Shown here: one piece after another, positions 1 through 44,005 of the stretch
Position numbering within the stretch: position 1 is the first letter of the stretch
Layout: the number at the start of each line of letters is the position of its first letter
Assembly: GCA_050173015.1 (NCBI GenBank)
Contig: JBFXLE010000009.1
Location: 32,001-96,000, forward strand
DNA: 64,000 nt
Direction of reading: 5' to 3'
DNA from: Calditrichaceae bacterium
GTDB taxonomy: Bacteria; Calditrichota; Calditrichia; Calditrichales; JBFXGD01
Position numbers and translations under genes: made by a program
The notes under the pieces: model-generated
The model's input: only the letters and a program-made list of their open reading frames with translations
Database searches by the model: none
Told to the model about the DNA's origin: nothing

Positions 1-3000
1 CGCCGTTACCGTCGCGTCGAAAGCAAGGGTGGAGTGTACCAGTGATCCCCGGCCATCGGTCAGCGGATAGGCTTCAATACACCAGTTTAGATAATTGGTC
101 AAACCACGGTGGGTTATCAATGTGCCCTTGGGTTTGCCTGTTGAACCGGAGGTATAGATCAGATAAGCCAGATGATCTGCATACACATTTACGTCCGGTG
201 CAGAAAGATCCTGAGACGAAATCAGCTCCTTTTCAGAATCAAGGCAAACAACTTTTAATATATGTTTTGATAACCGGGGAAGCAGCGCGCTGTGAGTCAG
301 CAGAATAGGCACACCGGAGTCTTCAATGATAAATGCCAGCCGGTCTTCAGGATAAGACGGATCTATGGGAACATAAGCGCCGCCCGCTTTAAGCACTCCA
401 AGAACAGAAACGATCAGATCTGTCGAACGCTTCATGCACAATCCAACCGGAACATCGGGGCCGACACCGAGGGATATCAGATAATTCGCGAGACGGTTAC
501 TCGCCTCATGAAGCTGCCGGTAAGTAAATGTTTCCAGCTCACCGAGTTCAAGGGCAATTTGATCAGGCGTGTTCATGACCTGACCGGAAAAAATTTGATG
601 AACCGGTAAATCTGTCTTAAGCGGATTCTCCTTACCATTCCATTTGAAGAGCAACTGATCATGTTCGCGCTCCGATATCATGTTGATCCGGCCAACCTGT
701 TCGTCCGGATTGGTTGTCAAACCGTTTAGCAAGTTTTGAAAATGATCCAGCATAACCGAAATCGTCGATTCGTCAAATAAATCGGTGTTATATTCCAGAG
801 CGCCGCTAAAACGATCTTTTTCTTCGGTGATAAACATCGTGATGTCAAACTTTGAAGTACCGCTGTGGGCCTCGATCGGACTGATGATAAGATCAGATGA
901 CTCATTTTCCGATTTCTCGGGCAGGTTAAGAATGACAAACATTACCTGGAAAAGAGGGGAATGACTCGTATTACGCTCCGGCTGCACTGCGTCGACGATC
1001 TTTTCGAACGGTACATCCTGATGGGCATAGGCGCCCAGGGCCGTTTCCCTGACATTTTGAATCAGCTGCCGGTAAGAAATCTCCCCGGAAAGATTCGCGC
1101 GCATCACAAGTGTATTGACAAAAAAGCCGACAATTCCTTCAATTTCAGGACGGTTCCGGTTAGCGATGGGGGTACCGACACAAATATTTTTCTCATTGGT
1201 ATAGCGGTACAGGAGAGTCTGAAAAGCCGCGAGTAATACCATAAATAAAGTGGCGTTCTCATCATGGGAAAGTTTTTTGACACGATCCGCGATATTTTTA
1301 TCAATGCTAAACGGCAGATATGCCCCCTTAAATGTCGGCATTGCGGATCTCGGCCGGTCTGTCGGCAGCTCAAGAACAGGAGGAATGCCGGTAAGCTGCT
1401 TTTCCCAGTATTTCAATTGCTCATCGAGTATATCTCCTTTAAGCCAGCCGCGCTGCCAGTGGGCGAAATCGGCATACTGAAGCTTTACTTCCGCAAGAGG
1501 CGATGGCCTTTTATTTAAAAAGGCATCATATATAATGGATAATTCACGCATCATCACCTGCGATGACCAATTGTCTGATATGATATGATGAATCACCAGG
1601 ATCACGGCGAAATCCTTATTGGCGATCTTTAATAATTCAATATGAAACAGAGGCAGTTTATCAATTGAAATAGGCTCTAGAGATTTTTCCCGAGCGATAC
1701 GTAGTATTTCTGTCTCTTTCCCGGCGGATTTCATATGTTTTAAATCCGTGATTTTCATGGATATCCGGTATTCATCGAAAATTTTTTGCGTCGGCGAGCC
1801 GTTCTCAGTTATAAATACCGTTCTCAGCGATTCATGCCGGCGGATAATTTCATTAAAACTTGCTTCGAAGACTTTGATATTCAGATCGCCTTTTATCCGG
1901 TAGGTTTCCGGTATGTTGTAAAAGGGGCTGTCGGGTTCGAGCTGATCCAGAAACCAAAGACGCTGCTGGGCAAAAGAGAGCGGAAGTTCCCGGTCTCTCG
2001 ACACGGGAAGGATAGGTGGGGCGATGATCTGTTCACCGGCCAACCGCGCCTCATCGACACAAAGGGCAAGACCAGAGACCGCAGGAAATTCAAATACTTT
2101 CCTCAGGGGAAATTCGATGTCGAATGTCTTTTTAATCCTGGAGACGAGCTGTGTCGCCAGTAAGGAATGTCCACCCAGATCAAAGAAATTATGCTGAGAG
2201 CCTACCTCATCAATATTCAGGAGATCTCCGACGATCACGGCAATCTTTTTCTCCGTGTCAGTTTTCGGTTCTACATATTCCGTTGTAAGCTGTTCAAGAA
2301 TCTGATTCTGATCGGGATTTGGCAAGGCGCGCCGATCGATTTTTCCGTTTGGTGTAAGCGGCAGCTTTTCGAGGGAAATATAGGCGGCCGGAATCATATA
2401 ATCGGGAAGCAGGTTGGCGAGATACTCTTTTAACACCGTTGCTGAGACGGTGGCATCAGAGTCGGTCACATAGTAGGCAATCAATCTTTTGTCGCCATTG
2501 GAGTCCTCCCGCAGGCTCACCGCCGCGGTCTTAATCCGGTCATAATCCTGCAAAGCGGTTTCAATTTCGCCTAATTCCACCCGGAATCCGCGAATTTTGA
2601 CCTGATTATCGCTTCGGCCAAGAAATTCTATGTTTCCGTCCGGCAGATAACGTCCTACATCACCGGTGCGATAAAATCGTTCACCCGGCATGCCGTAAGG
2701 ATACGGTATAAAACGATCCGCTGTTAGGTCCGGCCGGTTAAGATAGCCCCTGACAACACCTGCTCCACCCACGAATATTTCACCCCTGACTCCCACCGGA
2801 ACCGGTTCAAAATGGTTGTCAAGAATGTATAGCGTCATATTGGCAAAAGGACGTCCGATGGGCACCAGTCGGTCACCGGGAAGGTCCAGCTCTTTTGTCT
2901 CGAAATATGAACTGTCGATAGTCGCCTCGGTCAGTCCAAAGGAATTTATCAACCGGGTTTCGGTTCCCGCGACGCGATTAAATCTCCTGTATTCTTCCAC

Positions 3001-5277
3001 ATACCAGATATCCGATCCCGCGATCAGATTTCTTAAAAAATTCAGATTTTTATCATTTTCTTCGAGAAAATCAGCCAGATTTCTCAATACGGCCGGGACG
3101 AATTCCGCGGTGTCGATATTTTCTTTTATCATTAAATCATATAGCCGCGTCGCTTCCAGCAATATTTCACGGGGCGCCAGCACCAATTTACCCCCGGAAC
3201 ACAAAGCGCGTGTCCAGTCACCGGCAAACACATCAAATGAAAAACTGGCCATCTGCAGATGATTCCGGGCGCGGCTTTTGAGTTCATACGCGTCTTCCCA
3301 GGCAAGATAGGCGTTGATCAAATTCGCGTGTGAAACCATGACACCTTTTGATTTTCCGGTAGAACCGGAGGTGTAGATAAGATAGACCAAATTTTCCGGT
3401 CCGGCAGTATTCTTCGGATTGCAGGCCGGTTCATCCGCTAAAATATTTTCAGCCGTGTTCAGTTCAAAAATTTCTCCCGGGTAATCATTAATAATATTTT
3501 TAAGATGATCATCACAAATCAGCATGGGTGCATTCGCGTCCTCAAGCATATATCTTAGGCGATCGCCGGGGTAGGACGGGTCAAGAGGCAGATAGGCGGC
3601 TCCGGACTTCAGAACACCGAGCACGGCGATCATCAGTTCACACGACCGTTCCATAAGTATAGCAACCGGCGTGTCGGGGCCAATCCGCTTTTTTTTCAAA
3701 TAATGAGCAAGCCGGTTTGCCTTTTTGTTCAATTCCTCATAGCTGATCGATTTTTCCCGGAATACCACAGCTGTAGATGCCGGGGATTCGTTGACGCGAC
3801 TTTCAAATATTTGGTGAATCCCATTGAATTCTTCGTGTTCCGCTGAAGTCGCGTTCCATTCCCGCAATATTCTGTTTCTTTCTTCACTTTCCAATATGGG
3901 TATATTCGCTATGGATATATCCGGGTTGGCTGAAACAGAAATTAATAAATTCCTGAAATGAGACAGCATGCGCTCAATAGTCGATTTATCAAATATATCG
4001 GTATTAAATTCCGCCGCCACGTTCAGACCGGCTTCACTCTCCGCGATACTGAAAGTCAGATCAAAGGTTGATGTACCCATATCGACGCTGATCATTTCAA
4101 GTGTGAGTTCACCCACGGGCTGCAAAGAAACGGGTGTGTTTTGCAAAATAAACATCACCTGAAAAAGCGGTGATATCCGCATATCTCGTTCCGGTTGAAG
4201 CGCGTCAACAAGGTACTCAAAAGGCAGATCCTGATTTTCATAAGCGTCAAGAGTGCTCGCTTTGGTCCTGCCAACAAATTCCCGGAAAGTCGGCAGGTCG
4301 TCAAAATTTGTTCTTAAAACAAGGGTATTTATGAACAATCCGATCACGCCTTCGACTTCACCGCGCGTACGGTTGGCGATCGGGGTGCCGACACAAATAT
4401 CGGTTTGCCCTGAATATCGGTATAAAAGGGCATTGAATGCGGATAGGAGCGTCATAAACATCGTCACACCTTCCCGCCGGTTAAGACGATGCAACTTTTC
4501 TAAAGTATTACTTGAGATTGAAATTGATGCTGATGATCCCTCATTGGTTATCACAGGAGGTCTCGAACGGTCAGTCGGCAGTTCAAGCACCGGCGGATTG
4601 CTTCCCAGGTGATTTTTCCAGTAATCCAGCTGTTTTTGAAGCAAATCGCCGCGCATGTATTCCTTTTGCCAGCTTGCATAATCAGCGTATTGAATGGGCA
4701 GCTCCGGCAAGGGTGAAGGCCTGTTTTTCGAGAAGGCTTCATACAGGGTGGTGATTTCACTGACCAGAATACCCATTGACCATCCGTCTGAAATTATATG
4801 GTGAAGGGTTAATAGGGCGATGATTTCCAGATCGGATTTTTTTAGCACGGTAATCCTGATAAGCGGTCCCTTTTCCAGATTAAAAGGGCGTCTCGCTTCT
4901 TCGGTGGCGAGTCTTATAATCTGTTCTTCATGCTCACCGGAAACTGTCTTATCCAGAGAAATAACGGGCATGGGAATTTTCATTTGTTTTGTAATCACCT
5001 GCATCGGCTGTCCGTCAACAGCCGTAAAAGTCGTTCGAAGGGATTCGTGACGCAAGACGATCTCATCGATAACTTTTTTAAGGATTTTCAGATCGACGCT
5101 TCCTTTAAGCCGGAAAGCTATCGGTATATTGTAATAAGGACTCCCGGGTTCGAACTGATCCAGAAACCAGAGACGCTGTTGGCCGAAAGAAGCGGGGAAT
5201 ACATAAACTTCATCACCGTTCATGTCCGGCTGACCTGCGTTTAATACCTCAGGTTTTTGTAGTATTGTTTCATCCAT
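1..5277 (-). CDS. NRPS, C-A-T-C-A (3' end beyond the window edge); predicted Orn, then Asn-like
   Basis: Not in the ORF track (no stop inside the window). Hand translation from ATG 5277 gives MDETILQKP...VYVFPASFGQQRLWFLDQ; C motif HHIISDGWS; A motifs SFSFDVFAGD and INSFGLTEATID; T motif FFDLGGHSL; second C motif HHIISDNWS; it ends ...GRGSLVHSTLAFDATVTA at base 1 in the same frame as the start. Confidence 0.93.
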   Translation of the reverse strand, partial: MDETILQKPEVLNAGQPDMNGDEVYVFPASFGQQRLWFLDQFEPGSPYYNIPIAFRLKGSVDLKILKKVIDEIVLRHESLRTTFTAVDGQPMQVITKQMKIPMPVISLDKTVSGEHEEQIIRLATEEARRPFNLEKGPLIRITVLKKSDLEIIALLTLHHIISDGWSMGILVSEITTLYEAFSKNRPSPLPELPIQYADYASWQKEYMRGDLLQKQLDYWKNHLGSNPPVLELPTDRSRPPVITNEGSSASISISSNTLEKLHRLNRREGVTMFMTLLSAFNALLYRYSGQTDICVGTPIANRTRGEVEGVIGLFINTLVLRTNFDDLPTFREFVGRTKASTLDAYENQDLPFEYLVDALQPERDMRISPLFQVMFILQNTPVSLQPVGELTLEMISVDMGTSTFDLTFSIAESEAGLNVAAEFNTDIFDKSTIERMLSHFRNLLISVSANPDISIANIPILESEERNRILREWNATSAEHEEFNGIHQIFESRVNESPASTAVVFREKSISYEELNKKANRLAHYLKKKRIGPDTPVAILMERSCELMIAVLGVLKSGAAYLPLDPSYPGDRLRYMLEDANAPMLICDDHLKNIINDYPGEIFELNTAENILADEPACNPKNTAGPENLVYLIYTSGSTGKSKGVMVSHANLINAYLAWEDAYELKSRARNHLQMASFSFDVFAGDWTRALCSGGKLVLAPREILLEATRLYDLMIKENIDTAEFVPAVLRNLADFLEENDKNLNFLRNLIAGSDIWYVEEYRRFNRVAGTETRLINSFGLTEATIDSSYFETKELDLPGDRLVPIGRPFANMTLYILDNHFEPVPVGVRGEIFVGGAGVVRGYLNRPDLTADRFIPYPYGMPGERFYRTGDVGRYLPDGNIEFLGRSDNQVKIRGFRVELGEIETALQDYDRIKTAAVSLREDSNGDKRLIAYYVTDSDATVSATVLKEYLANLLPDYMIPAAYISLEKLPLTPNGKIDRRALPNPDQNQILEQLTTEYVEPKTDTEKKIAVIVGDLLNIDEVGSQHNFFDLGGHSLLATQLVSRIKKTFDIEFPLRKVFEFPAVSGLALCVDEARLAGEQIIAPPILPVSRDRELPLSFAQQRLWFLDQLEPDSPFYNIPETYRIKGDLNIKVFEASFNEIIRRHESLRTVFITENGSPTQKIFDEYRISMKITDLKHMKSAGKETEILRIAREKSLEPISIDKLPLFHIELLKIANKDFAVILVIHHIISDNWSSQVMMRELSIIYDAFLNKRPSPLAEVKLQYADFAHWQRGWLKGDILDEQLKYWEKQLTGIPPVLELPTDRPRSAMPTFKGAYLPFSIDKNIADRVKKLSHDENATLFMVLLAAFQTLLYRYTNEKNICVGTPIANRNRPEIEGIVGFFVNTLVMRANLSGEISYRQLIQNVRETALGAYAHQDVPFEKIVDAVQPERNTSHSPLFQVMFVILNLPEKSENESSDLIISPIEAHSGTSKFDITMFITEEKDRFSGALEYNTDLFDESTISVMLDHFQNLLNGLTTNPDEQVGRINMISEREHDQLLFKWNGKENPLKTDLPVHQIFSGQVMNTPDQIALELGELETFTYRQLHEASNRLANYLISLGVGPDVPVGLCMKRSTDLIVSVLGVLKAGGAYVPIDPSYPEDRLAFIIEDSGVPILLTHSALLPRLSKHILKVVCLDSEKELISSQDLSAPDVNVYADHLAYLIYTSGSTGKPKGTLITHRGLTNYLNWCIEAYPLTDGRGSLVHSTLAFDATVTA

Positions 5278-5339: not shown

Positions 5340-8300
5340 CTAGGCAAGATCCGATTTTTTCATTGTAACCGCTGTCCTTGATACACGTTTAATGACAGGA
5401 GTATCACTTTCCTGTTCACCCTGTGTTTCCAGGGTCTTCATAATGGCTCCCGCGATACCCGCGGAGGTCGGTTGCTCAAACAGTACCCTTAGGGGTAATT
5501 CCACTTTAAAACGCTCTCTCAAACGCGAAAGGAACTGTGTCGCGAGCAGCGAATGACCGCCAAGATCAAAAAAGTTATCATTAATGCCCACTTTTTCTCT
5601 GTTTAAGAGTTGACCGACAATCTCCACTACTTTTAATTCGGTTTCATTACGCGGAGCCACGTATTCGCTTTCGAGATGATCACTAATGCCGGACGGGGCC
5701 GGAAGCGCTTTGCGGTCAATTTTACCGTTTGGCGTAAGCGGCAGCCGGTCCAATTTGAGTATTGAGGGAGGAATCATGTAATCAGGCAGCCGTTCGCGTA
5801 AATAGGTCAAAATTTCCGGTATTTCCAAATTCTTATCTTCTTTGACCACGAAATACGCGGCCAGCGCTTTACTTCCGGGCAGATCATCTCTGGCAATGAC
5901 AACCACATCGCTTATGTCTTTGTGTAGTTTCAGGACAGATTCTATTTCGCCCAATTCAATCCGGAATCCGCGTATTTTGACCTGCTGATCAATCCTTCCC
6001 ATAAACCCGATATTACCGTCCGGGAGATATCGCGCGAGATCACCGCTGCAGTACAACCGGTCACCGGGTTCTTCGGAGAATGGATTTGGAATAAATTTTT
6101 CGGCGGTCTGTCCCGGGCGGTTCAAATAACCCCTGGCAAGGCCGACGCCCGCGATACAAAGCTCACCGGGGACACCCATCGGGACCGGCTGTTTATATTC
6201 ATCCAGAATAAAGATTTTAAAATTGGATATAGGCATACCGATAGGTGGCCCCGAAGGATATTTACCTGAACAAAGATGCATGGAGGCGCACACCGTGGTC
6301 TCAGTCGGTCCGTAAGCGTTAAAAAATTTCCGTCCTTTCCTCCACCGTTCAACCAGCTCACCGGAAACGGCTTCACCGGCTGTGATGATCACACGAAGAT
6401 CGGGCAGTGGAGTTTCAGGCAGCACCGCCAGAACGGACGGTGGCAGTGTTATTGTTGTGATTTGCTCGTCGCGCAGCAGTTTCACTAATGCGTTACCGTC
6501 GACAATCGTCTCACGGGAAGTAAGACAGATGGCGGCGCCGCAGAGTAACGCCATGGTAAATTCCCAAACCGACGCGTCGAAGCTGAGAGATGAAAACTGC
6601 ATGATTTTGCTGTCTTTACCGACATCGAATTCTTTTATCTGAGTACTGGCAAGATTACATAAGCCACGGTGTCTGAGCATGGTGCCCTTCGGTCTCCCCG
6701 TTGATCCCGATGTGTAGATGATATAGGCAAGATTGTCCGGGTCGATGGTGACAGCAGGATTATCATCATTTTCAGTATTTATTTCTGACAATTCCCGGTC
6801 AATAACGATGGATTTGGTTTCAGCGGGAAGCATACCTCGTGTCCTTTCCTGCGCGATAACCACCGGGAGTCCTGAGTCTTCAACCATGTACGCGATTCGA
6901 TCCGCGGGATAGGCCGGATCGATTGGCAGAAACGCGTTGCCTGATTTTAAAACGGCAAGAATGGCTACAATCATATCAATAGACCGGTCCATACAGATTC
7001 CAACCGGTTTTTCCACACCGATGTCAAGGTTTAGAAGATAGCGCGCGAGTCGGTTAGACCTCGAATTTAATTCGGAGTATGTTAATTGTTCTGAACCGGA
7101 GTCGCTGTTAGCCCTGAAGATGACCGCGGGAGCATCCGGTTGCTTTTTGGCATTTAATTCAAACCACTCATGGACGCAAATCTCCGCCGGAAATTCAGAT
7201 TTTGTCTGATTCCATTGGTTAGTGATTTGTTGAGTGTCCTTTGTGGTTAAAAGCTGGAGTGATCCTACCGGATAAGATGGATCCAATGCGACGCTTGTTA
7301 ATAAAGTTTTAAAATGATCCAGCATATTTTTAACGGTTTCCGAATTGAATAAATCGGTATTATACTCCATAATGCCCAGCAGACCGGCCTCTCCTTCAAT
7401 CATGGTCAGGGTCATGTCGTATTTTGATGTAATGGTTTCGGTTTCATAAGGAGTGATAACCAGATCAGATAGCTCAATGGAGGAAACGGGTAAATTTTGC
7501 AGAACAAACGCGACCTGAAACAGGGGAGAATGACTCATATCCCTGGTTGGGTGAAGCTCTTCAACCAGTTTTTCAAAGGGCAGATCCTGATATGAATAGG
7601 CTTTCAGCGCCGTCTCACGAATCTGTTTCATTAATTCGATAAAATCCGGATCATCGTCAAAATCGGCTCTGAAGACAAGCGTGTTGACAAAAAAGCCGAT
7701 TAAACGTTCAATTTCGGGGTGTGTGCGATTAGCGATCGGAGAGCCCACAAGTATGGTTTTCTGGCGGCTGTAACGGTGTAATAGCGTTTGAAACGCGGCC
7801 AGAAGTGTCATAAACAGGGTACAATTTTCTCGCCGGCTAAGCTTGATAAGTTTACCGGTCAAGTCTTCCGATATTTCAATTGTTTCCGTGGCACCGTTAA
7901 ATGTCTGGACAGCGGGTCTTGGTCTGTCCGTTGGCAACTCCAATAATGGGGGGCTTCCGCCTAATTTCTCTTTCCAGTAGGCGATCTGTTGTTCAAGAAC
8001 ATCATCTTTGAGCCAGCCCTGCTGCCATTGGGCAAAGTCGGCATATTGAACCGGTAAATCTGAAAGCAATGGTTCATGGCCTGATGTATAAGCATCATAG
8101 CAGACGGCAATTTCATCAATTAGTAGTTTTACCGACCAGCCATCGGCAATAATGTGATGAAGTGCGAAGACAGACAGATGGCTTTGTTCCGAAAGTTTGA
8201 TTATAAGTACTCTGAATAGCGGTCCGCTTGTTAAATCGAATGATTTTTTAGCCTCCTTTGTGGCAAGATCTTTTGCTTGTTGCGATTTTACGGGTTCATC

Positions 8301-33986: not shown

Positions 33987-34018
33987 GATCTATTCCTTCA
34001 GTAAAAAAATCGATTGAT

Positions 34019-37000: not shown

Positions 37001-37402
37001 TTTTTTGTCGATCCCTGAGAGATCAATTTCGGGGAGATCAATCTTCAGTTTCCCGGCAATTATCTGAGAGGGGGAACCGTCATTTTGGCTGAAAACCGTT
37101 CTAAGTACCGAATGTCTTTTTATAATTGTGTTTATACTGTTTTTAAAAGCCTCTTTATTAAAATTTCCCCGTATTTTTACCGCCGCGGGAATGCTGTATA
37201 AGGAATTGCCCGGTTCAAGCTGATCCAGAAACCAAAGTCTTTGCTGCGCGAATGAAACGGGTACAGATTTGTCCTTGGACTGCCGTGGCAGAATAACGAT
37301 CTCTGAAAGATCAATTCCTTCATCAATCAGCATCAATTCAAAGAGTTCTCTCTTTTCCGGTGATAATGTGGAAATCTGTTCAAAGAGACTATTCACTCGC
37401 AA
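34019..37402 (-). CDS. NRPS, C-A-T; predicted Arg/basic residue
   Basis: HHIVSDGWS, YIIYTSGSTG, YKTGDL, GGHSM; A code DAENIGAITK. The start may be GTG at 37396 after GGAAGGA. Confidence 0.96.
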   Translation of the reverse strand: MRVNSLFEQISTLSPEKRELFELMLIDEGIDLSEIVILPRQSKDKSVPVSFAQQRLWFLDQLEPGNSLYSIPAAVKIRGNFNKEAFKNSINTIIKRHSVLRTVFSQNDGSPSQIIAGKLKIDLPEIDLSGIDKKEIHSRVNEVILSETEKPFDLQTGPLIRALLLKLSVDETIVILTVHHIVSDGWSMGVIISEIKALYPAYCLNKPVSLPELPVQYADYAVWQRKWFRGKVLEQQITYWKNQLKDVPPLIELPTDRPRPASRTYRGDHIIFNIEMEKVQKLEDFCLKQDVTMFMTLISVFQALLHRYSGQSDICVGSPIANRNRAEVAGLIGFFVNTLVMRGDLSENPAFTSFLERMKHTILNAYANQDLPFEMLVEAVNPNRALNHSPLFQVMFVYNNTPENAVTLPGLEVSLIDIESRTSKFDIIMNLTETENILQGKLEYNTDIFNRDTMERFIEHFKVLIDGILINPLSKISDLPMLTGEEFRYLTTVLSKPEAWYDSEKFVHELFEAQAEKSPQAIALIADQNQLSYEELNTRANCLARYLIRKGVLPGTFVGVSVNRTPDLIIGILGILKAGGTYLPLDPGYPKERIRFMLEDSSAKFVLTQERIAKTFPTSQCELICLDSRWPDISKENSRNPEINLTKDLPAYIIYTSGSTGTPKGVLISHQAIANHCCDMKDYYKITPEDHILQFASFNFDASVEQILPTLTGGARLVLRDDEIWPTIEFHNKIRQFDLSVINLPTAYWQQLALDWASHPEWLSKNRLRLVIIGGDRMSSDTLELWQKTPLSGVRLLNAYGPTETTITASAYDIPQTFKGTNIPIGRPRANREFYILDNQLRPLPVGIPGELHIGGNALAIGYLNQPELTAEKFINNPFGKESGILLYKTGDLARYLPDGNIEFLGRADNQVKIRAFRIELGEIEAALNQCGGISRSIVTAIEDSSGVKRLIAYYINGKNQDLPVKELRGSIQKRLPDYMIPSAFIRMDQFPLSPAGKIDRRALPVPDNLRPELESAFVTPRTPTEKKIAGIAGQLLKIEKIGVYDNFFELGGHSMLATQFISRLRESFNVEIPLRSVFENPTVDGMMRVITESQSMGEDQKELDNMLAELESLSEEEVQKIINTGE

Positions 37403-37429
37403 TTCCTTCCGTTTCCTTTATTAGATAAT

Positions 37430-40400
37430 TTAAAGTGAATCATTTTTTCTTGCTCGCAGCATCTCATTTGCTTGTTGGTCAGAAATTTTTTCAATTCGAG
37501 CGAGCATGCTTGCCACTTTATCAATTTTTTGTGAAGCCTTATTTATTTCGCGATCAATTATTTTTGTTATCCCTGAAATAGTCGGATCGGCGAATAGACT
37601 CTGCAAGGGCAGTTCAATATTGAATTGTTCACGTACTTGCGCGATTAGCTGAGTTCCCAGAAGTGAATTACCGCCCAAATCAAAAAAATCGTCATTTACG
37701 CCAATGGTCTGAATACCCAGCAAATTTTGCCAGGACTCGACAACCTGTTTTTCCAGTTTTGTTTTTGGCGGTATATAATTCGTTGGGAGATCGGGTCTCG
37801 AATATTTAATGTTCCCGGATTTACCTGTTTCAGAAATTTCAGATACTTCGGTTATTTCACTGTCAGGGACTTCTGATGAAACGGTTATCCGGCCGATCCC
37901 ACGGAGCGCCAAAATTCTCAGGATGGCGTTTGCTGATTCCTCGCTGTTGATCCCGGGTTCTGATCTTGTCTCAGTCTTTCGGATAAACCGGTTGTCACGG
38001 TTGACGCTTATCCACTGAGTCTGGCCGGCGCGGTTTTGGAGAGATGAAAAACTGTCGATAAAATGATTTACCGCTGCATATGCCGCCAACCCATATTTGT
38101 CATTAGGATGGGGTTGGGATGAGTGTAAAATACAGAAATCTGATCCGTTTTCTATCGTCAGTTTGGTGAGTTTCTTAAAACCCGCATCCATATTCTTGAT
38201 AGAGTTGGTAATATTTTCATGACTTCCATTCGAGGTGACATTCAAGAGCGCGGGATCTGAATCAATATCCGCGAAGATAAATCCGCGAATCGGTCCCATG
38301 CTTTTAATACCGGCGTCATAATTTTTAAAATTAGACAGGTTTCCCGTAAAAATTTTGACCCTGGCGCCTCTTTTTTCGATTTTTCTGATTTGCCTGATCT
38401 GCCGACTGATTACATTTTTGTCATCATGAGATTCCAGCCATAAATCCCAGTTTTCATTAGCGGGAAAAGAATCCGCTGATAATAAAATTAGCTTTAGTTT
38501 CGCTGATTTGCTGAGGTGTTCGGCGAGTAAAAGCGCCGACTTATCAAAACTCCCCGCGATCAAATAGGTGGAATCATCACGCAATAACAGTTCCTTCTTA
38601 TCCGGAACATCCAGTTGAATGGCTTCATTATGCCTGGTCCAGCGGTGACGGCCCCGGTAAGCGACAATCGGGTCAGAATTCCGCCCGGTGAATTCATGGA
38701 GAATTTGTTCTGAATATCTTCGTGAGAATCCTTCCCCGTGAGCAAACGGATCAAGATCAATCAGATGAAGATGGATGTCAGGATGGCCTTCATGTAAAGC
38801 CACGATTAGTCCAGCGAAAACTGATAGGGAAGTATCAATTTTTTCAGATCCGGTTACGTCAAACATTCCCCGCGTAATGACTCCGAGGCGCGGTGCTTCG
38901 GAATAGTTCAGGGTATTTAACACCTTTGACAGATAAACAAACCCCGGTGTTCGGTCATGCCGATCCAATATGTCCTTGCCTCGATGGTCTGATGCTATCT
39001 CAGGACCATTAGTGTCATAGAGTATGACGCCCGGATTGATTTTTTTTTCAGACAAATAATCAAACAATTGACGGAAGTCATCTTCTGATGACGGATTTAT
39101 GATGATTTTTTCATTTGATACATGAAAATTATTACCATCACAAATATTGATAACGCTTTTGGTGTACTCCCGAAGATGTTCTGTAATTTGCTTTGTTAAA
39201 GGGTCATGATGTCCGAATATCAGGCATACAGTATCTTTGAATGCCGAAATTAGCTTAGTTTTTCTGACCGGGATATCGCTTTGTTTCCAAACCGGGATAT
39301 GGAACCGGCTTGATGTATCGATTGGTTTTTCACCGTTGGAATCAGCAATGGATGATGTTTTATGAATATCGATCCAGTAGCGCTGCCTTTCAAAGGGATA
39401 AGTGGGCAATGATATTTTATTTCTGATTTCATCGCGGTAAAACGCGCTCCAGTTTATTTCTTTTCCGGACAGCCATATTTTTCCAAGAAGACTGTATAGG
39501 CATAGGGTTGCAGATCGATCAATTTCTGAATCTTCCATCATGGACAGTATTCGGTTTTCAGATACGGGAGTCCGGGATCCTGAACGGTCATTACCAAAAC
39601 CGACAATAATTGGCTGTATCGGTAGATCTGAGAGAGCGTTCAGAATATGATCAGATTGTCCGGGTGCTGTAAGTAAGTCGATATAATAGGCTGGATTCGC
39701 GGCTTCTTCAGGCGCAATAAAATCTCCGCTGACAGAAGAAATGTATTTGATCGATGGCTTTTTTAAAGTAATGCTGGAGATATACTCCTTAAAATTACCT
39801 GACAGATCGGAAAGCATCGCGTCGTTTTTGTTTCCGGCAACCGAAAATTCAGCATGTTTTAAGATTAATTTCAGGCTGTCTTCAAGCGTAATAACGCCGG
39901 CCAGATGGGCGCATAAGAATTCTCCCGAATCATATCCGGCCATGATCTCGGGCATAACACCATAGTCGATTAAAATCCGCGCGAAAGCGTATTGTATGAT
40001 GAAGGACGCGAGATGAGAAGCGGCTTCTTTTTCAAGCTTTACTTTAGATTCATTCTGAAAATTAATTTTGCCGGAAATAATGTCCGACATCGGTAAATCT
40101 GATTGATTCTTTGTCAGGGCGCAACAATGATCCACATATTTTTTGAATTCCGGAATTTCTTCATAAAATTTTCCCGACGAGCCGATACCGGAATAATTTC
40201 TACCTTCAAACAAAAAGGCCATTCCCGCCTGAACCGGGATTCTTTTGTGAGAGAGGGTGGGAAATTTATCAGATTTACTATCCTTCAGAGCTTCAATAAG
40301 TTCCTGATAATTCTGATACGTTATTATTTTCCGGTGATTAAAGGGTTTTCTTCCGGTGTTGAGGGTATAATCGAGGTCTGACAAATTTGTATCCGGATAT

Positions 40401-43400
40401 TTCAAAAGGTACGCAACCAAATTCGCTGATATTTTGTCAAGAGCCGACATACTTTTTGCTGAAAGAGTCAGCAAATGATGTTTTTGTTCGGCAGAGCCGG
40501 GTAATGGCTCGGGAGCGTTTTCAAGAATAATATGGGCATTTGTGCCGCCAATTCCGAAGGAACTGACTCCGGCGAGTCTTCTGGTGTTTTTCACTGGCCA
40601 TTCCTGACCGCTGATGGTAAAAGCTATCGGGCTTTCGCCTGATTTGATATGCGGATTTAACCTGCTCAGGTGAAGATGTTTCGGAATATATTTGTTATTC
40701 AAAGCAAGTATCGTTTTAACAAAACCTGATATTCCGGAAGCGGCTTCAAGATGACCGATATTGGTTTTGACTGATCCGATAATCAGCGGGTTTGAAAAAT
40801 CACGTTTAACGGTCAGCACATTTCTGATCGCGTCTATCTCTATCGGATCGCCATACGCGGTACCGGTAGAGTGAGACTCAAGATAATCAATATCATCCGG
40901 TGAAACACCCGCGTCATGGAGAGCGAGCCGCAATACTTCCTGCTGCGCAAGACCTTTTGGAGCGCCAATACCGTTGCTCCGGCCATCCTGGTTTAGGGCA
41001 GATCCCCTGATTACAGCGTGAATCGGATCATGATCGCGGACCGCGTCGGATAACCTTTTTAATAAAACCACCCCGCATCCTTCACCGCGCACATATCCGT
41101 CAGCGTTTTCATCAAATGATCTGCAGCGTCCGGAGGGCGAGAGCATTCTTGCCTGAGATAATGTGACCGATACTTCAGGAGAAAGGATGAGATTAACGCC
41201 TCCCGCGATAAACAAATCCGAATCACCTTGTCTAAGGCTCCGGCAGGCATTATGAATCGCTGTCAGAGAGGACGAACAGGCCGTATCGACAGAGAGACTG
41301 GGGCCTCTGAGATCAAAGGTATAGGAGATACGATTGGCCGCAAGACTTAGAGCGTTCCCGGTGCCTGAATAACTGCTGATGTCATTAAGATTTTTGTTAT
41401 TAAGCCTTGAATAATCATTGGTGCTTATGCCGATATACACACCGGTATTGCTTCCGGCTATTAAGTCGGCATTTATACCCGCTGATTCAAAGGCTTCCCA
41501 CGTAGTTTCAAGTAACAGTCTTTGTTGAGGGTCCATATGAACCGCTTCTTTGGGAGATATACCAAAGAAATGGGCGTCAAATTGATCAACACCGCTGATA
41601 AATCCGCCGTATTTTGTAACCATTTTTCCGGGAGTACCGGGATTCGGATCATAAAAATCCTCTGCCCGCCAGCGATCCGCGGGAACTTCGGTAACGGCGT
41701 CAATCCCGTCTTTCAGAATTTTCCAGAACTCATCAGGATTATTCGCGCCGGGCATTCTCAAACTGTAACCGATCACAGCAATGGATTCATTTTTTATCTC
41801 TGCCGGCTTTGTCTTTTGATGAACGATGATTGGGATTTCGCCTTCACCCGCGAGATGCGCGGCCAGAGATGCAATATCAGGGTAATCCCAAATCAGTGTG
41901 GGGGACAGGGAACGGTTTAACCAGACTTCAAGGTCTCCCACCAATCCGACTGCCTGTGCTGAATCCAGCCCGTAACTTGAGAAAGGTTTTTGCGGGTCAA
42001 TCTCCGGGGCGCTAATTTCCAGTGCTTCCGCAAGACGCGCGGTTATCCATTCTTCTATCCGGAGCGTGTTTTCGTTTTTTTGCAAAGAATCACCGGAAAC
42101 ATGTTCTAGGTCCCGGATGACGTCAATATCTTCGGGTGATTCTGTCTCAACGGATTTTGTGACGAGCTTTAAAATCCCGTTTTCGTATTCATTTTTACAG
42201 GCGTGCCGTTGTATTTTTCCGCTTGAAGTTTTTGGAATAGTTCTCGGTTTGATGAGCGCGATTGAATGTGTCTGGATATCAAAAGTTTCATTGACGATCA
42301 GACGAATGGCATCGGTAATTTGCTTAATGTTTATGTTTTTTGAATGACGAACTTCTGCCACGACGACAAGGCGTTCGGAACCATCTTTTTCAATCGAAAA
42401 AGCGGCGGAACAACCCGGCCGAATCTCGGGATGACAGTTTTCTATAAGATATTCAATATCCTGAGGATAGTAATTTCTCCCCCTGATAATGATCAGATCT
42501 TTCACCCTGCCGGTTACATACAAATTACCGTTCTCAAGGTAGCCAAGATCTCCCGTTCTCAAAAACGGGCCTTCTCCGGAATTCGCGAGATGGGCATGGA
42601 AGGTTTTTTCTGACTCCTCAGAACGATTCCAGTAGCCCTGAGCCACATTGTCGCCTTTTATCCAGATCTCGCCGATCTGCAATTCTTCACAAGCGATCAT
42701 AGAATCCGGATTGACAATCGCGATTTTTTGACCGGATGGAGTTGTGCCGCAACTGACCAGGGGCAACGCATCCGGTGATTCTTTTTCCGTCGGAACTACT
42801 TTGTTTGAAGCCAGAGCATTCTTATCAAGTGTGGTCACAATAGGTTCAACTTTTATTGTGGTTCCTGTTACAAAAAGTGTTGCCTCCGCCAGACCGTAAC
42901 ATGGGATGAAACTGTCTTTTCTGAACCCCGCGACTTTAAATGTTTCCGTAAACCGTTCAATTGTCTGCTGTCTGACGGGCTCTGCGCCGCTAAAGGCTAC
43001 ATCCCAGTGACTCAGATCCAGCCCCATTAATTGTTCGGTAGTGATTTTTTTGACGCATAAATCATACGCGAAATTTGGACCGCCGCTTATGATTGATTTG
43101 TCCTTAATTTTTGAGATCGCCTGCAGCCAGCGGATGGGCTGCTGAAGAAAGTGTATAGGTGACATTAATGTAGCGGGTAGATTGCCAAAAAGCGGCTGAA
43201 GAATGCCTCCTATTAATCCCATGTCATGATAGATGGGCAGCCATATTACTCCGTGCGAATTGTTTGAGTATCCAAAACCCTCATGGATTTGGGCAGAATT
43301 AACGAGAAGATTATTATGCGAGAGCATGACCCCTTTAGGGACCCCTGTGGATCCGGAAGTATACTGCAAAAATGCCAGATTATCCCCGGTAATTCCGGGA

Positions 43401-44005
43401 TCCTTCCAATTCTCCGCCTGACCACCCAAAATATCATCTGTAGAGATCCATTGTAAATTGCCAAGTTCGTTTGCCTCGGCGATTCCGCTGCTCTTTGTTG
43501 AGAAAAAATCCATAGTGGTGCGGAATTTTCTCAGGAAAGGCACTTTATCCAGTGATTCGGTAAATTTGTTCCCGAGTTTTAAAATACGGATCATGTGAAG
43601 AATTGAGTTGTTTGTGAGAGCCAGAGTAGCCTGCGCATCCCTTATAATACCCTGAAGCCGCGGTAGGGTGCGGTTTAGGCGGTTCGGGTCTGGCGGGTAG
43701 GCGGGAACCGCAATGATACCGGCGTAGAGACAGCCGAAGAATCCTATAATGTATTCCAGTCCGGGCGGATAAAGCAATAAAGCGCGCGCGCCGGTCAGGC
43801 CTTTTTTCTGCAGGGTAGCCGCTACCGCGCGGGCAAGTTTGTCCAAATCGCTGTAGGTATAATTAATCTCCTTGGATTCACCATCTTTCAGATAGGTGTA
43901 GGCGATTTTGTCCGGATCAGTGAACGCTCTCCACTGTAAAAGCTCGATAAGTGTTGATGGCTTAAATTTTGGATCCGAATAATCAATTGATTTATATTTT
44001 GACAT
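37430..44005 (-). CDS. Fatty acyl-AMP ligase/type I PKS hybrid: FAAL-ACP-KS-AT(degenerate)-KR(degenerate)-ACP
   Basis: FAAL: AFLQYTSGSTG, WLPIYHDMGLIG, CYGLAEATL, PKTSSGKIQR. ACP: YGLDSAQ. KS: DTACSSS, ESHSTGT, NIGHLEAASG. AT remnant GYDSGE; KR remnant with AAYAAVN; final ACP FFDLGGNSL. Confidence 0.96.
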   Translation of the reverse strand: MSKYKSIDYSDPKFKPSTLIELLQWRAFTDPDKIAYTYLKDGESKEINYTYSDLDKLARAVAATLQKKGLTGARALLLYPPGLEYIIGFFGCLYAGIIAVPAYPPDPNRLNRTLPRLQGIIRDAQATLALTNNSILHMIRILKLGNKFTESLDKVPFLRKFRTTMDFFSTKSSGIAEANELGNLQWISTDDILGGQAENWKDPGITGDNLAFLQYTSGSTGVPKGVMLSHNNLLVNSAQIHEGFGYSNNSHGVIWLPIYHDMGLIGGILQPLFGNLPATLMSPIHFLQQPIRWLQAISKIKDKSIISGGPNFAYDLCVKKITTEQLMGLDLSHWDVAFSGAEPVRQQTIERFTETFKVAGFRKDSFIPCYGLAEATLFVTGTTIKVEPIVTTLDKNALASNKVVPTEKESPDALPLVSCGTTPSGQKIAIVNPDSMIACEELQIGEIWIKGDNVAQGYWNRSEESEKTFHAHLANSGEGPFLRTGDLGYLENGNLYVTGRVKDLIIIRGRNYYPQDIEYLIENCHPEIRPGCSAAFSIEKDGSERLVVVAEVRHSKNINIKQITDAIRLIVNETFDIQTHSIALIKPRTIPKTSSGKIQRHACKNEYENGILKLVTKSVETESPEDIDVIRDLEHVSGDSLQKNENTLRIEEWITARLAEALEISAPEIDPQKPFSSYGLDSAQAVGLVGDLEVWLNRSLSPTLIWDYPDIASLAAHLAGEGEIPIIVHQKTKPAEIKNESIAVIGYSLRMPGANNPDEFWKILKDGIDAVTEVPADRWRAEDFYDPNPGTPGKMVTKYGGFISGVDQFDAHFFGISPKEAVHMDPQQRLLLETTWEAFESAGINADLIAGSNTGVYIGISTNDYSRLNNKNLNDISSYSGTGNALSLAANRISYTFDLRGPSLSVDTACSSSLTAIHNACRSLRQGDSDLFIAGGVNLILSPEVSVTLSQARMLSPSGRCRSFDENADGYVRGEGCGVVLLKRLSDAVRDHDPIHAVIRGSALNQDGRSNGIGAPKGLAQQEVLRLALHDAGVSPDDIDYLESHSTGTAYGDPIEIDAIRNVLTVKRDFSNPLIIGSVKTNIGHLEAASGISGFVKTILALNNKYIPKHLHLSRLNPHIKSGESPIAFTISGQEWPVKNTRRLAGVSSFGIGGTNAHIILENAPEPLPGSAEQKHHLLTLSAKSMSALDKISANLVAYLLKYPDTNLSDLDYTLNTGRKPFNHRKIITYQNYQELIEALKDSKSDKFPTLSHKRIPVQAGMAFLFEGRNYSGIGSSGKFYEEIPEFKKYVDHCCALTKNQSDLPMSDIISGKINFQNESKVKLEKEAASHLASFIIQYAFARILIDYGVMPEIMAGYDSGEFLCAHLAGVITLEDSLKLILKHAEFSVAGNKNDAMLSDLSGNFKEYISSITLKKPSIKYISSVSGDFIAPEEAANPAYYIDLLTAPGQSDHILNALSDLPIQPIIVGFGNDRSGSRTPVSENRILSMMEDSEIDRSATLCLYSLLGKIWLSGKEINWSAFYRDEIRNKISLPTYPFERQRYWIDIHKTSSIADSNGEKPIDTSSRFHIPVWKQSDIPVRKTKLISAFKDTVCLIFGHHDPLTKQITEHLREYTKSVINICDGNNFHVSNEKIIINPSSEDDFRQLFDYLSEKKINPGVILYDTNGPEIASDHRGKDILDRHDRTPGFVYLSKVLNTLNYSEAPRLGVITRGMFDVTGSEKIDTSLSVFAGLIVALHEGHPDIHLHLIDLDPFAHGEGFSRRYSEQILHEFTGRNSDPIVAYRGRHRWTRHNEAIQLDVPDKKELLLRDDSTYLIAGSFDKSALLLAEHLSKSAKLKLILLSADSFPANENWDLWLESHDDKNVISRQIRQIRKIEKRGARVKIFTGNLSNFKNYDAGIKSMGPIRGFIFADIDSDPALLNVTSNGSHENITNSIKNMDAGFKKLTKLTIENGSDFCILHSSQPHPNDKYGLAAYAAVNHFIDSFSSLQNRAGQTQWISVNRDNRFIRKTETRSEPGINSEESANAILRILALRGIGRITVSSEVPDSEITEVSEISETGKSGNIKYSRPDLPTNYIPPKTKLEKQVVESWQNLLGIQTIGVNDDFFDLGGNSLLGTQLIAQVREQFNIELPLQSLFADPTISGITKIIDREINKASQKIDKVASMLARIEKISDQQANEMLRARKNDSL

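What the first reader, a model, noticed from the sequence alone, without database searches (positions are those of the whole stretch)
1..44005. Giant lipopeptide PKS/NRPS assembly line (over 44 kb, at least 11 modules) whose product I do not recognise
Seen: seven co-oriented genes with FAAL loading, one PKS module, at least 11 NRPS modules and two E domains. Stachelhaus codes read by hand against GrsA PheA: DAENIGAITK, DAQDLGMVDK, DGAVAGAVAK(E), DAVVGVGVCK, DAWTIAAVCK, DAQDLGMVDK, DATKVGEVGK(E), DAATVVGIGK, DAWTIAAVCK, DVGEIGSIDK, DAT.... Known: DAWTIAAVCK is Phe, DVGEIGSIDK is Orn, DxTKVGEVGK is Asn, DAQDLGVVDK is Gln. Inference: acyl-Arg-Gln-D-X-X-Phe-Gln-D-Asn-X-Phe-Orn-Asn..., a cationic/aromatic lipopeptide that matches no compound I recall. 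The flanks (PPDK, Feo, selenoprotein) suggest an anaerobic or microaerobic host, where such clusters are little studied.
Basis: partly seen in the sequence, partly recalled or inferred. Interest (0 to 1): 0.85.

Follow-up and report, generated by a model that had tools for sequence, protein, structure and literature searches.

The report
Trimmed Calditrichota lipopeptide assembly line
Seven genes spanning about 50 kb in an uncultured Calditrichota bacterium encode an intact enzyme assembly line for a fatty-acid-capped 12-residue peptide that nobody has isolated; it is a shortened, sulfotransferase-free offshoot of a line shared by most of its relatives.

Summary
Seven co-oriented minus-strand genes form one FAAL-PKS-NRPS line, and all 11 hand-read specificity codes were reproduced. 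The line runs 6.5 kb past the window's left edge. In full it is 50,533 bp with 12 NRPS modules, epimerases at modules 3, 7 and 11, and a terminal thioesterase, followed by an MFS exporter, a type II thioesterase and a PPTase.

It is not a lone oddity. 30 of 38 same-order genomes carry a related line at the same locus. Across up to 8 genomes, positions 1, 5 (Phe), 8, 9 (Phe), 10 (Orn) and 11 (Asn) keep the same or near-same code. This scan has already reported that family on other DNA as sulfated 14-16-residue lines.

This genus carries a trimmed form, found in 2 of 86 phylum genomes. KS1 is fused to the second PKS module's tail. The acyltransferase and ketoreductase are dead. The in-line sulfotransferase, one module at the head and one at the tail are missing.

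The genes are under purifying selection (dN/dS 0.06-0.13), so the cluster is not decayed. No product is known. It is a new member of a known kind, of moderate interest.

The parts
37430..44005 (-). g1 (2191 aa): FAAL-ACP1-KS-AT(dead)-KR(dead)-ACP2, the lipid-loading gene
   Evidence: Pfam. Best NCBIfam hits are fatty-acyl-AMP ligase models (458 and 440 bits, below their curated cut-offs) against 311 bits or less for CoA ligases.
42161..44005 (-). FAAL domain (g1 residues 1-615)
   Evidence: dN/dS 0.064 against the same-genus genome G001.
41849..42070 (-). ACP1 (g1 residues 646-719), Ser motif GLDSA
   Evidence: dN/dS 0.068.
40511..41794 (-). KS (g1 residues 738-1165), Cys-His-His intact (DTACSSS, HSTGT, NIGHLE); orthologue of the FAAL-proximal KS1 of relatives
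   Evidence: Motifs. 55-70% identity to gene A KS1 against 33-49% to gene C KS2. Nested in the KS1 clade, with the KS1/KS2 split supported 100/100. dN/dS 0.072.
39371..40243 (-). Dead acyltransferase remnant (g1 residues 1255-1545)
   Evidence: Alignment with the working AT of G002 and G003 gene C: GQG changed to GRN, GHSIGE changed to GYDSGE (catalytic Ser replaced by Asp), and a deletion of about 76 residues that removes the HAFH region. Pfam 26.8 bits against a 32.7 cut-off, covering only profile positions 15-117. dN/dS 0.20.
37976..39238 (-). Degenerate ketoreductase region (g1 residues 1590-2010)
   Evidence: the glycine-rich NADPH motif (GGSGNLA / GGLGRIG in relatives) reads AGSFDKSA, and IHAAG reads IFADI, while the Tyr of YAAxN is kept. 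Pfam KR scores 44-46 bits against 91 bits in G002. dN/dS 0.24.
37553..37768 (-). ACP2 (g1 residues 2080-2151), Ser motif GGNSL; orthologue of the ACP of relatives' second PKS module
   Evidence: 51-52% identity to gene C ACP against 30-31% to gene A.. dN/dS 0.13.
34019..37402 (-). g2 (1127 aa): C-A-T, module 1, code DAENIGAITK (substrate unassigned; invariant in 8 of 8 genomes)
26049..33986 (-). g3 (2645 aa): C-A-T-C-A-T-E, modules 2 (DAQDLGMVDK, Gln/Glu-like) and 3 (DGAVAGAVAK, unassigned, epimerised); E domain at 26061-27476
   Evidence: It lacks the sulfotransferase domain found in this gene in 6 of 6 relatives examined.
19581..26048 (-). g4 (2155 aa): DCL-type C-A-T-C-A-T, modules 4 (DAVVGVGVCK, unassigned) and 5 (DAWTIAAVCK, Phe)
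11723..19588 (-). g5 (2621 aa): C-A-T-C-A-T-E, modules 6 (DAQDLGMVDK) and 7 (DATKVGEVGK, Asn, epimerised); E domain at 11738-13153
5340..11726 (-). g6 (2128 aa): DCL-type C-A-T-C-A-T, modules 8 (DAATVVGIGK, unassigned, conserved type) and 9 (DAWTIAAVCK, Phe)
1..5277 (-). First 1759 of 3934 residues of g7: module 10 (DVGEIGSIDK, Orn) and the start of module 11 (DATKVGEVGK, Asn). The gene continues 6,527 bases beyond the window edge (G000:C9:25473-37277) with T-E, module 12 (DCL-A-T, DAELVGGIVK) and TE
   Evidence: TE motif GWSFG.

Best explanation
This is an intact, selectively maintained 50.5-kb operon-like set of seven genes (16,801 aa, 14 carrier domains) in a Calditrichaceae-type bacterium. 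It builds an N-acylated dodecapeptide. The FAAL adenylates a free fatty acid and loads it on ACP1. The chain reaches ACP2 through the KS. The C domain of g2 joins it to residue 1. Eleven more C-A-T modules extend it, with epimerisation at residues 3, 7 and 11, each followed by a D-acceptor-type C domain. The terminal TE releases the product, probably as a macrocycle. The predicted product is acyl-X1-Gln/Glu2-D-X3-X4-Phe5-Gln/Glu6-D-Asn7-X8-Phe9-Orn10-D-Asn11-X12. The neighbouring HetI-type PPTase, type II thioesterase and MFS pump prime, proof-read and export. The line is a reduced descendant of an assembly line that most of the order carries at the same chromosomal place. A recombination at the end of the KS fused KS1 to the linker-AT-KR-ACP of the second PKS module. 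That removed AT-DH-ER-(KR)-ACP, one amino-acid module and KS2. The AT and KR then lost their catalytic motifs. The in-line sulfotransferase is absent, and the four-module tail is replaced by three modules with an E domain. The AT and KR are both dead and the genome has no other AT except FabD. I therefore think it most likely (about 45%) that the KS-AT0-KR0-ACP2 unit now only relays the unextended fatty acyl chain to the NRPS. The main alternative (about 35%) is one C2 extension with malonyl loaded in trans. Shown here: the domains, motifs, codes, synteny, chimeric origin and selection. Inferred: the chemistry, the substrates at X positions, cyclisation and biological role. The confidence given is for the overall identity (intact, reduced member of the family-wide lipopeptide line), not for the relay sub-claim.
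For: Architecture and integrity. Pfam and in-house HMMs give 12 C-A-T modules, 3 E domains and a TE. 15 of 15 C/E domains have HHxxxD, 14 of 14 carrier domains have the Ser motif, and the 3 T domains before E carry GGDSI while 9 of 9 others carry GG[HN]S[LM]. The TE has GWSFG.

Selection. Against the same-genus genome G001, dN/dS is FAAL 0.064, ACP1 0.068, KS 0.072, ACP2 0.13 and g2-g4 0.12-0.13, but AT remnant 0.20, KR remnant 0.24 and linker 0.27.

Family. FAAL-ACP-KS at 52-78% identity (66% at most outside the genus) occurs in 30 of 40 relatives searched (30 of 38 in the order). 6 of 6 relatives examined in detail share one canonical gene order. PPDK upstream and MFS-TEII-PPTase-lipoprotein-sigma54 activator downstream are shared by G000, G002 and G003. 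Codes are identical or near-identical at positions 1 (8 of 8), 5 (8 of 8), 8 and 9 (7 of 7), and 10 and 11 (6 of 6), and the A domains at these positions are each other's best matches in most of the genomes compared.

Chimera. In sliding windows, g1 is 55-70% identical to gene A up to about residue 1165, then closer to gene C to the end. The KS tree places G000/G001 inside the KS1 clade, between canonical lineages, on a long stem of 0.43.

Dead domains. One search gives the alignment and the scores. The only AT above cut-off in the genome is FabD on contig C19. The AT0-KR0-ACP form is found in 2 of 86 phylum genomes, one genus. No sulfotransferase lies in or beside the cluster; the three Sulfotransfer_3 matches in the genome (two open frames) lie on contig C1.
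Against: No transcript, protein or metabolite evidence exists. Five of the twelve residues (1, 3, 4, 8, 12) have codes with no precedent in four code-string searches of the library, so the sequence is less than half determined, and Gln versus Glu is open. The KS keeps Cys-His-His under strong constraint. That fits continued decarboxylative condensation better than a pure relay. Only two genomes carry this form, so motif retention is weakly informative either way. dS of 0.7-1.2 is near saturation, which makes the dN/dS values rough. The code positions rest on motif anchors I recalled, not on an alignment to the GrsA structure. MIBiG/antiSMASH could not be run, so a match to a characterised cluster is excluded only indirectly. 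The direction of change (reduction rather than expansion) rests on the dead-domain relics and one KS tree whose relevant node has 87/88 support.
Confidence: 0.78

Rival explanations
1. The PKS module still elongates. The housekeeping malonyl-CoA:ACP transacylase FabD loads ACP2 in trans, as in trans-AT PKSs. The intact KS then condenses, and the peptide carries a 3-oxoacyl cap, or a 3-hydroxyacyl cap if FabG reduces it in trans.
For: KS Cys-His-His is intact in both G000 and G001, with dN/dS 0.072, as low as the FAAL. One bona fide AT (FabD, 133 bits) exists in the genome. The AT remnant is kept in frame with dN/dS 0.20 rather than lost, like the AT-docking remnants of trans-AT PKSs (recalled).
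Against: No dedicated trans-AT gene lies in or beside the cluster. The KR decayed together with the AT. That is what one expects if no beta-keto group is made any more. Only two genomes carry this form, so retention of the His residues is weak evidence.
Confidence: 0.35
2. The line is a crippled remnant. The head deletion and dead AT/KR broke chain initiation, so no lipopeptide (or only a shunt product) is made and the genes are on their way out.
For: The AT and KR are dead and about 10 kb of ancestral functions are missing. No RNA data are at hand.
Against: All seven reading frames are open over 50.5 kb. All catalytic motifs of C, E, T, TE and KS are present. dN/dS is 0.06-0.13 at dS about 0.7-1.0 since the split from G001, which carries the same form. 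The lesions therefore predate that split and the rest has been maintained since. Near-identical DNA occurs in runs of at least four other studies.
Confidence: 0.1
3. The cluster encodes an already characterised compound, or was recently acquired from a producer of one.
For: The amino-acid palette (Phe, Asn, Gln, Orn) and the exact codes are those of tyrocidine-type synthetases (recalled). The best solved relatives are LgrA, TycB/C and McyB.
Against: The flanks are syntenic with relatives across three other families. Outside Calditrichota, the best 120 of 6011 hits to g4 are at most 45% identical. The residue order does not match tyrocidine (recalled). Five literature searches on Calditrichota or Caldithrix (and passages in 35-36) found no description.
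Confidence: 0.03

Closest known systems
The canonical Calditrichales FAAL-PKS-NRPS line
   Same: Same chromosomal locus and accessory genes. Same gene order and E/DCL rhythm for modules 1-11. Same or near-same codes at positions 1, 5, 8, 9, 10 and 11. Orthologous KS1 and ACP2.
   Different: This window lacks AT-DH-ER-(KR)-ACP, the first amino-acid module and KS2. Its remaining AT and KR are dead. It lacks the in-line sulfotransferase. It ends in Asn-E-DCL-A-T-TE instead of Asn-Tyr-X-TE, where X is Tyr-like or DAETTAGVCK-type.
FAAL-initiated hybrid PKS/NRPS lipopeptide synthetases such as puwainaphycin (PMC4219810, abstract seen in the listing) and mycosubtilin/iturin (recalled)
   Same: A FAAL-ACP-KS head feeds an NRPS, and a fatty acyl chain is handed from a PKS carrier to the first C domain.
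   Different: Those lines use a working AT and an aminotransferase to make a beta-amino fatty acid. Here there is no aminotransferase, and the AT and KR are inactive.
Tyrocidine / gramicidin S synthetases of Brevibacillus (TycA-C, GrsA-B)
   Same: Shared specificity codes for Phe, Asn, Gln-type and Orn, and E domains followed by D-acceptor C domains. They are among the best solved relatives.
   Different: They have no lipid head and are decapeptides with a different residue order (recalled). Solved chains are only distantly similar: 979 bits over about 1600 residues for the best, LgrA.
Non-elongating or AT-less PKS modules (KS0 relay modules and AT-docking remnants of trans-AT PKSs; ACP-to-ACP module skipping in engineered DEBS); all recalled
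   Same: A KS-ACP unit that keeps an AT-shaped remnant without catalytic residues and sits between two carriers.
   Different: KS0 domains usually lack the HGTGT histidine; this KS keeps Cys-His-His. The remnant derives from a cis-AT module by recent decay, and no dedicated trans-AT gene is present.

Membership tests
FAAL-primed hybrid PKS/NRPS lipopeptide assembly line | N-terminal fatty acyl-AMP ligase followed by a carrier domain | tested here: met
   Pfam AMP-binding plus a DIP2-like C-terminal domain plus PP-binding. The best NCBIfam models are FAAL types, though below their curated cut-offs. ACP1 Ser motif.
FAAL-primed hybrid PKS/NRPS lipopeptide assembly line | KS with catalytic Cys-His-His | tested here: met
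   DTACSSS, HSTGT and NIGHLE in G000 and G001.
FAAL-primed hybrid PKS/NRPS lipopeptide assembly line | Working acyltransferase (GQG, GHSxG serine, HAFH/YASH region) | tested here: not met
   GRN, GYDSGE and a deletion of about 76 residues. Pfam 26.8 bits against a 32.7 cut-off; 29.5 bits in the genome scan.
FAAL-primed hybrid PKS/NRPS lipopeptide assembly line | Ketoreductase with an NADPH-binding glycine motif | tested here: not met
   AGSFDKSA in place of GGxGxxG and IFADI in place of IHAAG; catalytic Tyr retained.
FAAL-primed hybrid PKS/NRPS lipopeptide assembly line | Collinear C-A-T modules with catalytic motifs, and E domains followed by D-acceptor C domains | tested here: met
   12 modules. 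15 of 15 C/E domains with HHxxxD. 3 of 3 E domains are followed by the divergent C subtype (131-137 bits against 384-454 bits to an LCL seed).
FAAL-primed hybrid PKS/NRPS lipopeptide assembly line | Terminal thioesterase and a cluster-linked PPTase | tested here: met
   Pfam Thioesterase at g7 residues 3680-3921 and ACPS family in the neighbouring gene. GWSFG motif. HetI-type model at 192 bits, below its cut-off.
FAAL-primed hybrid PKS/NRPS lipopeptide assembly line | An isolated lipopeptide product | not testable with these tools
   No metabolite data. No RNA holder listed.
Calditrichales sulfated lipopeptide line (scan-internal family, not in print) | Same locus and accessory genes (PPDK ... 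MFS, TEII, PPTase, lipoprotein, sigma54 activator) | tested here: met
   BLASTP of flank proteins against G002 and G003: PPDK 63-82%, MFS 46-47%, TEII 48%, PPTase 36-44%, lipoprotein 33%, activator 54-59%.
Calditrichales sulfated lipopeptide line (scan-internal family, not in print) | Positional orthology of modules with shared codes | tested here: met
   Positions 1, 5, 8, 9, 10 and 11 are conserved in all genomes where readable, 6 to 8 each. Best A-domain matches are positional for 1 and 10-11 in every genome holding that module, and for 5, 8 and 9 in most.
Calditrichales sulfated lipopeptide line (scan-internal family, not in print) | In-line sulfotransferase domain between module 2 and module 3 | tested here: not met
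   Present in 6 of 6 relatives and absent from G000 g3 and from G001. No ST gene lies near the cluster.
Calditrichales sulfated lipopeptide line (scan-internal family, not in print) | Amino-acid module followed by KS-AT-KR-ACP (statine-type unit) at the head | tested here: not met
   Deleted by the KS1/KS2 fusion.
trans-AT PKS | Free-standing dedicated AT gene in the cluster | tested here: not met
   Only FabD, on another contig next to a match to the g1 KS that I take to be FabF. Cluster flanks hold none.

The most novel reading that the evidence does not exclude
A KS1/KS2 crossover in one Calditrichaceae genus turned a cis-AT elongation module into a natural non-elongating relay (KS-AT0-KR0-ACP). 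Together with loss of the sulfotransferase, this converted an order-wide sulfated statine-type lipopeptide into a shorter non-sulfated one that probably carries a net positive charge. The positions that never change across the order (X1, Phe5, X8-Phe9-Orn10-Asn11) mark the part of the molecule that serves a conserved physiological function of this phylum, not a strain-level antibiotic role.
Probability: 0.3. Interest if true: 0.6.

Novelty: new member of a known kind. Interest (0 to 1): 0.45.

Why it matters
Calditrichota have no characterised natural product as far as my searches reached. An NRPS/PKS line kept at one locus in 30 of 38 genomes of an order is unusual for secondary metabolism. 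It suggests a product with a housekeeping-like role, perhaps at the cell surface, in motility or in signalling. This window adds a natural deletion variant. It shows which parts of the line are dispensable: the statine unit, the sulfate and the Tyr-rich tail. It also shows which parts are not: residue 1 and the Phe/X-Phe-Orn-Asn positions. It offers a compact 50.5-kb target for heterologous expression, plus a natural test case for what a KS does once its AT and KR have died. It remains an orphan cluster built on textbook logic.

Tried and rejected
Code-string searches of the paper library: the full novel codes and their 7-letter cores gave 0 papers. Known codes with at least 2 terms required gave 0. 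With 1 term required, 5 papers came up, of which I read passages in 3. 'IGAITK' gave one irrelevant hit. The supplement of PMC12283262 gave no occurrence of any term, even of common codes, so its table is probably not stored in a searchable form.

Literature on the taxon: searches gave only generic mentions (passages read). One search was badly designed, with min_terms 3 and no taxon required, and is uninformative.

Sigma-54 promoter consensus scan: 23 matches against 22.2 expected, none in the 780-bp AT-rich region upstream of g1. No link to the neighbouring sigma-54 activator was shown.

Crossover inside the AT: this was my first idea. I rejected it for a crossover at the end of the KS after the sliding-window comparison.

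Recent internal duplication as the origin of the E11-DCL12 tail: rejected. E and DCL domains are only 40-50% identical to those of modules 3-4 and 7-8.

The 124-aa ORF overlapping the g1 start (43992-44366) has no counterpart in G002 or G003 and is low-complexity. I treat it as spurious.

RNA evidence: no RNA holder listed.

The conserved 329-aa neighbour has no Pfam or NCBIfam family. The AlphaFold model (pLDDT 76.9, 3-sequence alignment) shows a lipoprotein with three Ig/FN3-like sandwiches. Foldseek returns only generic adhesin and receptor folds with TM at most 0.33, so no function was gained.

I could not view a residue-level alignment of module 1's A domain to ApnA A1 (4d4g, rank 6), because five two-domain LgrA entries fill the five alignment slots.

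Full report
WHAT IS THERE. The window is G000:C9:32001-96000. Seven minus-strand ORFs fill window 1-44005. Their junctions are 4- and 8-nt overlaps, one abutment, and gaps of 27-62 nt, as in an operon. Pfam and domain HMMs built from the window's own domains give these architectures:
- g1: FAAL-ACP-KS-AT(remnant)-KR(weak)-ACP
- g2: C-A-T
- g3: C-A-T-C-A-T-E
- g4: C-A-T-C-A-T
- g5: C-A-T-C-A-T-E
- g6: C-A-T-C-A-T
- g7: runs off the window

On the contig, g7 is 3934 aa (C9:25473-37277) and reads C-A-T-C-A-T-E-C-A-T-TE. The whole line is therefore C9:25473-76005, which is 50,533 bp and 16,801 aa. It has 12 NRPS modules, E domains at modules 3, 7 and 11, and a terminal TE. Each E domain is followed by a C domain of the divergent subtype (131-137 bits against 384-454 bits to an LCL seed), as expected for D-acceptor C domains. 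Downstream lie an MFS transporter, a type II thioesterase, a HetI-like PPTase, a 329-aa lipoprotein, a GAF-sigma54 activator and a Ser/Thr kinase.

I aligned the 12 A domains and read the ten positions from motif anchors whose positions I recalled. The result:
- M1 DAENIGAITK
- M2 DAQDLGMVDK
- M3 DGAVAGAVAK
- M4 DAVVGVGVCK
- M5 DAWTIAAVCK
- M6 DAQDLGMVDK
- M7 DATKVGEVGK
- M8 DAATVVGIGK
- M9 DAWTIAAVCK
- M10 DVGEIGSIDK
- M11 DATKVGEVGK
- M12 DAELVGGIVK

Published passages support DATKVGEVGK = Asn (PMC3547906) and DVGEIGSIDK = Orn (PMC3992020). DAQDLGVVDK serves both Glu and Gln (PMC12283262). Phe for DAWTIAAVCK is recalled. The codes of M1, M3, M4, M8 and M12 were found in no paper. For M1, the closest solved single A domain is ApnA A1 (473 bits).

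IS IT DECAYED? No. 15 of 15 C/E domains carry HHxxxD, and 14 of 14 carrier domains carry the Ser motif. The three T domains before E domains have GGDSI, and the other nine have GG[HN]S[LM]. The TE has GWSFG. Against the same-genus genome G001, which has the same gene order at 78-88% protein identity, dN/dS is 0.06-0.07 for FAAL, ACP1 and KS and 0.12-0.13 for g2-g4. dS is 0.7-1.2, so these ratios are rough. Near-identical DNA is held by runs of at least four further studies.

IT BELONGS TO A LINEAGE-WIDE FAMILY. The nearest named record is a Calditrichaceae MAG (84% for g4). FAAL-ACP-KS at 52-78% identity (66% at most outside the genus) is present in 30 of 40 relatives searched. All 30 are among the 38 of the same order. 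The 10 without it include five genomes of at most 85% completeness and the two from other families of the class.

I fetched the region from six relatives in three other families. All six show one canonical plan:

FAAL-ACP-KS-AT-DH-ER-(KR)-ACP-C-A-T | KS-AT-KR-ACP | C-A-T | C-A-T-ST-C-A-T-E | DCL-A-T-C-A-T | C-A-T-C-A-T-E | DCL-A-T-C-A-T | (C-A-T)x4-TE

G012 has one more PKS module and a second ST-bearing gene. The last gene of G004 lay outside what I fetched. PPDK upstream and MFS, TEII, PPTase, the lipoprotein and the sigma54 activator downstream are shared by G000, G002 and G003, so the locus is inherited, not imported.

Codes by position:
- M1 is identical in 8 of 8 genomes.
- M5 is Phe-type in 8 of 8.
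- M8 is of one type, DA[AGS]T..G.GK, in 7 of 7.
- M9 is Phe-type in 7 of 7.
- M10 is Orn in 6 of 6.
- M11 is Asn in 6 of 6.
- M2, M3, M4, M6, M7 and M12 vary.

A domains at M1, M10 and M11 are each other's best matches in every genome that holds the module, and those at M5, M8 and M9 in most. At variable positions the best match follows the substrate. Earlier notes of this scan describe the same family on other genomes as sulfated 14-16-residue lines ending Orn-Asn-Tyr-Tyr. I derived the plan before reading them, and my results agree.

WHAT IS SPECIAL HERE. In sliding windows, g1 is 55-70% identical to the relatives' first gene up to about residue 1165 (the end of the KS). From the post-KS linker to the end it is closer to their second PKS gene: 42-44% against 31-34% in the linker, and 51-52% against 30-31% in the ACP. 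A KS tree splits KS1 from KS2 with 100/100 support. It places G000/G001 inside the KS1 clade, between canonical lineages (87/88), on a long stem of 0.43. So g1 is a KS1/KS2 fusion that removed AT-DH-ER-(KR)-ACP, one amino-acid module and KS2.

In the retained part the AT is dead. GQG reads GRN, and GHSIGE reads GYDSGE (GTDSGE in G001). About 76 residues including the HAFH region are deleted. Pfam gives 26.8 bits against a cut-off of 32.7. The KR has lost its glycine-rich NADPH motif and the IHAAG motif. Both regions evolve about three times faster (dN/dS 0.20 and 0.24) yet stay in frame. The KS keeps Cys-His-His. The genome has one AT above cut-off, FabD, on another contig.

g3 lacks the ST domain that 6 of 6 relatives have, and no sulfotransferase gene lies near the cluster. 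The tail has Asn-E-DCL-A12-T-TE where relatives have Asn-Tyr-X-TE, with X Tyr-like or DAETTAGVCK-type. Its E and DCL domains are only 40-50% identical to the other copies, so this is not a recent internal duplication. The AT0-KR0-ACP form was found in 2 of 86 genomes of the phylum, both in one genus.

HOW IT MOST LIKELY WORKS. The steps below are inferred from the established logic of these domain families.
1. The FAAL loads a fatty acid on ACP1.
2. The chain passes via the KS to ACP2, which is the carrier that the C domain of g2 has always used in this family.
3. Twelve modules then build acyl-X1-Gln/Glu2-D-X3-X4-Phe5-Gln/Glu6-D-Asn7-X8-Phe9-Orn10-D-Asn11-X12.
4. The TE releases the product, probably by cyclisation.

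Whether a C2 unit is added is open. The joint death of AT and KR and the lack of a dedicated trans-AT favour a plain relay (about 45%). The intact, strongly constrained KS favours FabD-assisted elongation to a 3-oxoacyl cap (about 35%). A crippled head is the remainder. Without the sulfotransferase the product should be less anionic than its relatives'. Whether it is net cationic depends on the unassigned residues and on Gln versus Glu.

COMPARISON AND NOVELTY. In logic it is an ordinary FAAL-primed hybrid lipopeptide line. It fails two membership features of a working PKS module (AT and KR). It also fails two of the scan's sulfated Calditrichales family (the ST domain and the statine unit), while meeting the locus and positional-orthology criteria. 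Outside Calditrichota, the best 120 of 6011 hits to g4 are at most 45% identical. Solved NRPSs are distant. Five literature searches found no description of a Calditrichota or Caldithrix NRPS/PKS product (with passages in 35-36). MIBiG could not be queried. I rate it a new member of a known kind. The interest lies in the order-wide conservation and in the natural module-deletion variant, not in new chemistry logic.

Noticed in passing
window 44785-47919 (- strand): A DtxR-family iron-dependent repressor (47398-47919), an 85-aa ORF that I take to be FeoA but did not scan (47124-47381), FeoB (44968-47127) and a 57-aa Cys-containing ORF sit between PPDK and g1. In G002 and G003, PPDK is separated from the first assembly-line gene only by a 238-245-aa ORF. 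The Feo unit therefore looks like an insertion in this lineage and not part of the cluster.
   Followed up: partly
L019:14403-19094 and L019:5392-14370 (G003); also G002, G004, G009, G010, G012: Sulfotransferase (Sulfotransfer_3) domains are built into NRPS genes between a T domain and the next C domain in 6 of 6 canonical relatives. G003 also has a second one after module 1 and a free-standing one after the last gene. I know of no characterised example. Earlier notes of this scan say the same.
   Followed up: partly
L020:3881-5692 (G003): A 603-aa choline/carnitine O-acyltransferase-family gene lies between the first assembly-line gene and the KS-AT-KR-ACP gene of G003. My ORF lists for G002 and G000 show no gene there.
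   Followed up: no
L018:7740-9686 (G003): A 648-aa cadherin/Big_9-repeat protein with a type IX secretion sorting tail is inserted between two NRPS genes of G003. A different T9SS-tailed protein lies 8 kb downstream of the G000 cluster (L001:14966-17173).
   Followed up: no
G012 (L040-L044) and G010 (L028-L031): G012 carries a third PKS module and two consecutive C-A-T-ST-C-A-T-E genes (16 A domains). One A domain of G010 is split in my HMM annotation (2766-aa gene), which suggests an inserted domain.
   Followed up: no
L002:5212-6201 (G000:C9:21212-22201): A 329-aa lipoprotein (signal peptide and Cys20) is conserved next to the cluster in G000, G002 and G003 at 33% identity, with no Pfam or NCBIfam family. 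It is modelled as three Ig/FN3-like sandwiches. Its function is unknown.
   Followed up: partly
window 40511-41794 (g1 KS): The KS of G000 and G001 reads HSTGT where all six relatives' KS1 and KS2 aligned read HGTGT. The G000/G001 KS also sits on a long branch (0.43) in the KS tree. This may reflect adaptation to a new partner carrier.
   Followed up: partly
Reading TGA as Sec gives no convincing frame, and the only clear gene is a 144-aa ORF that looks like a small heat-shock protein (not scanned) at 56210-56644. Other parts of the flank were not checked for it.
   Followed up: partly
window 34019-44005: Near-identical copies of this stretch (0.34-0.92 of sampled words) are held by runs of at least four studies other than the likely source. 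Their labels include marine and unspecified metagenomes.
   Followed up: no
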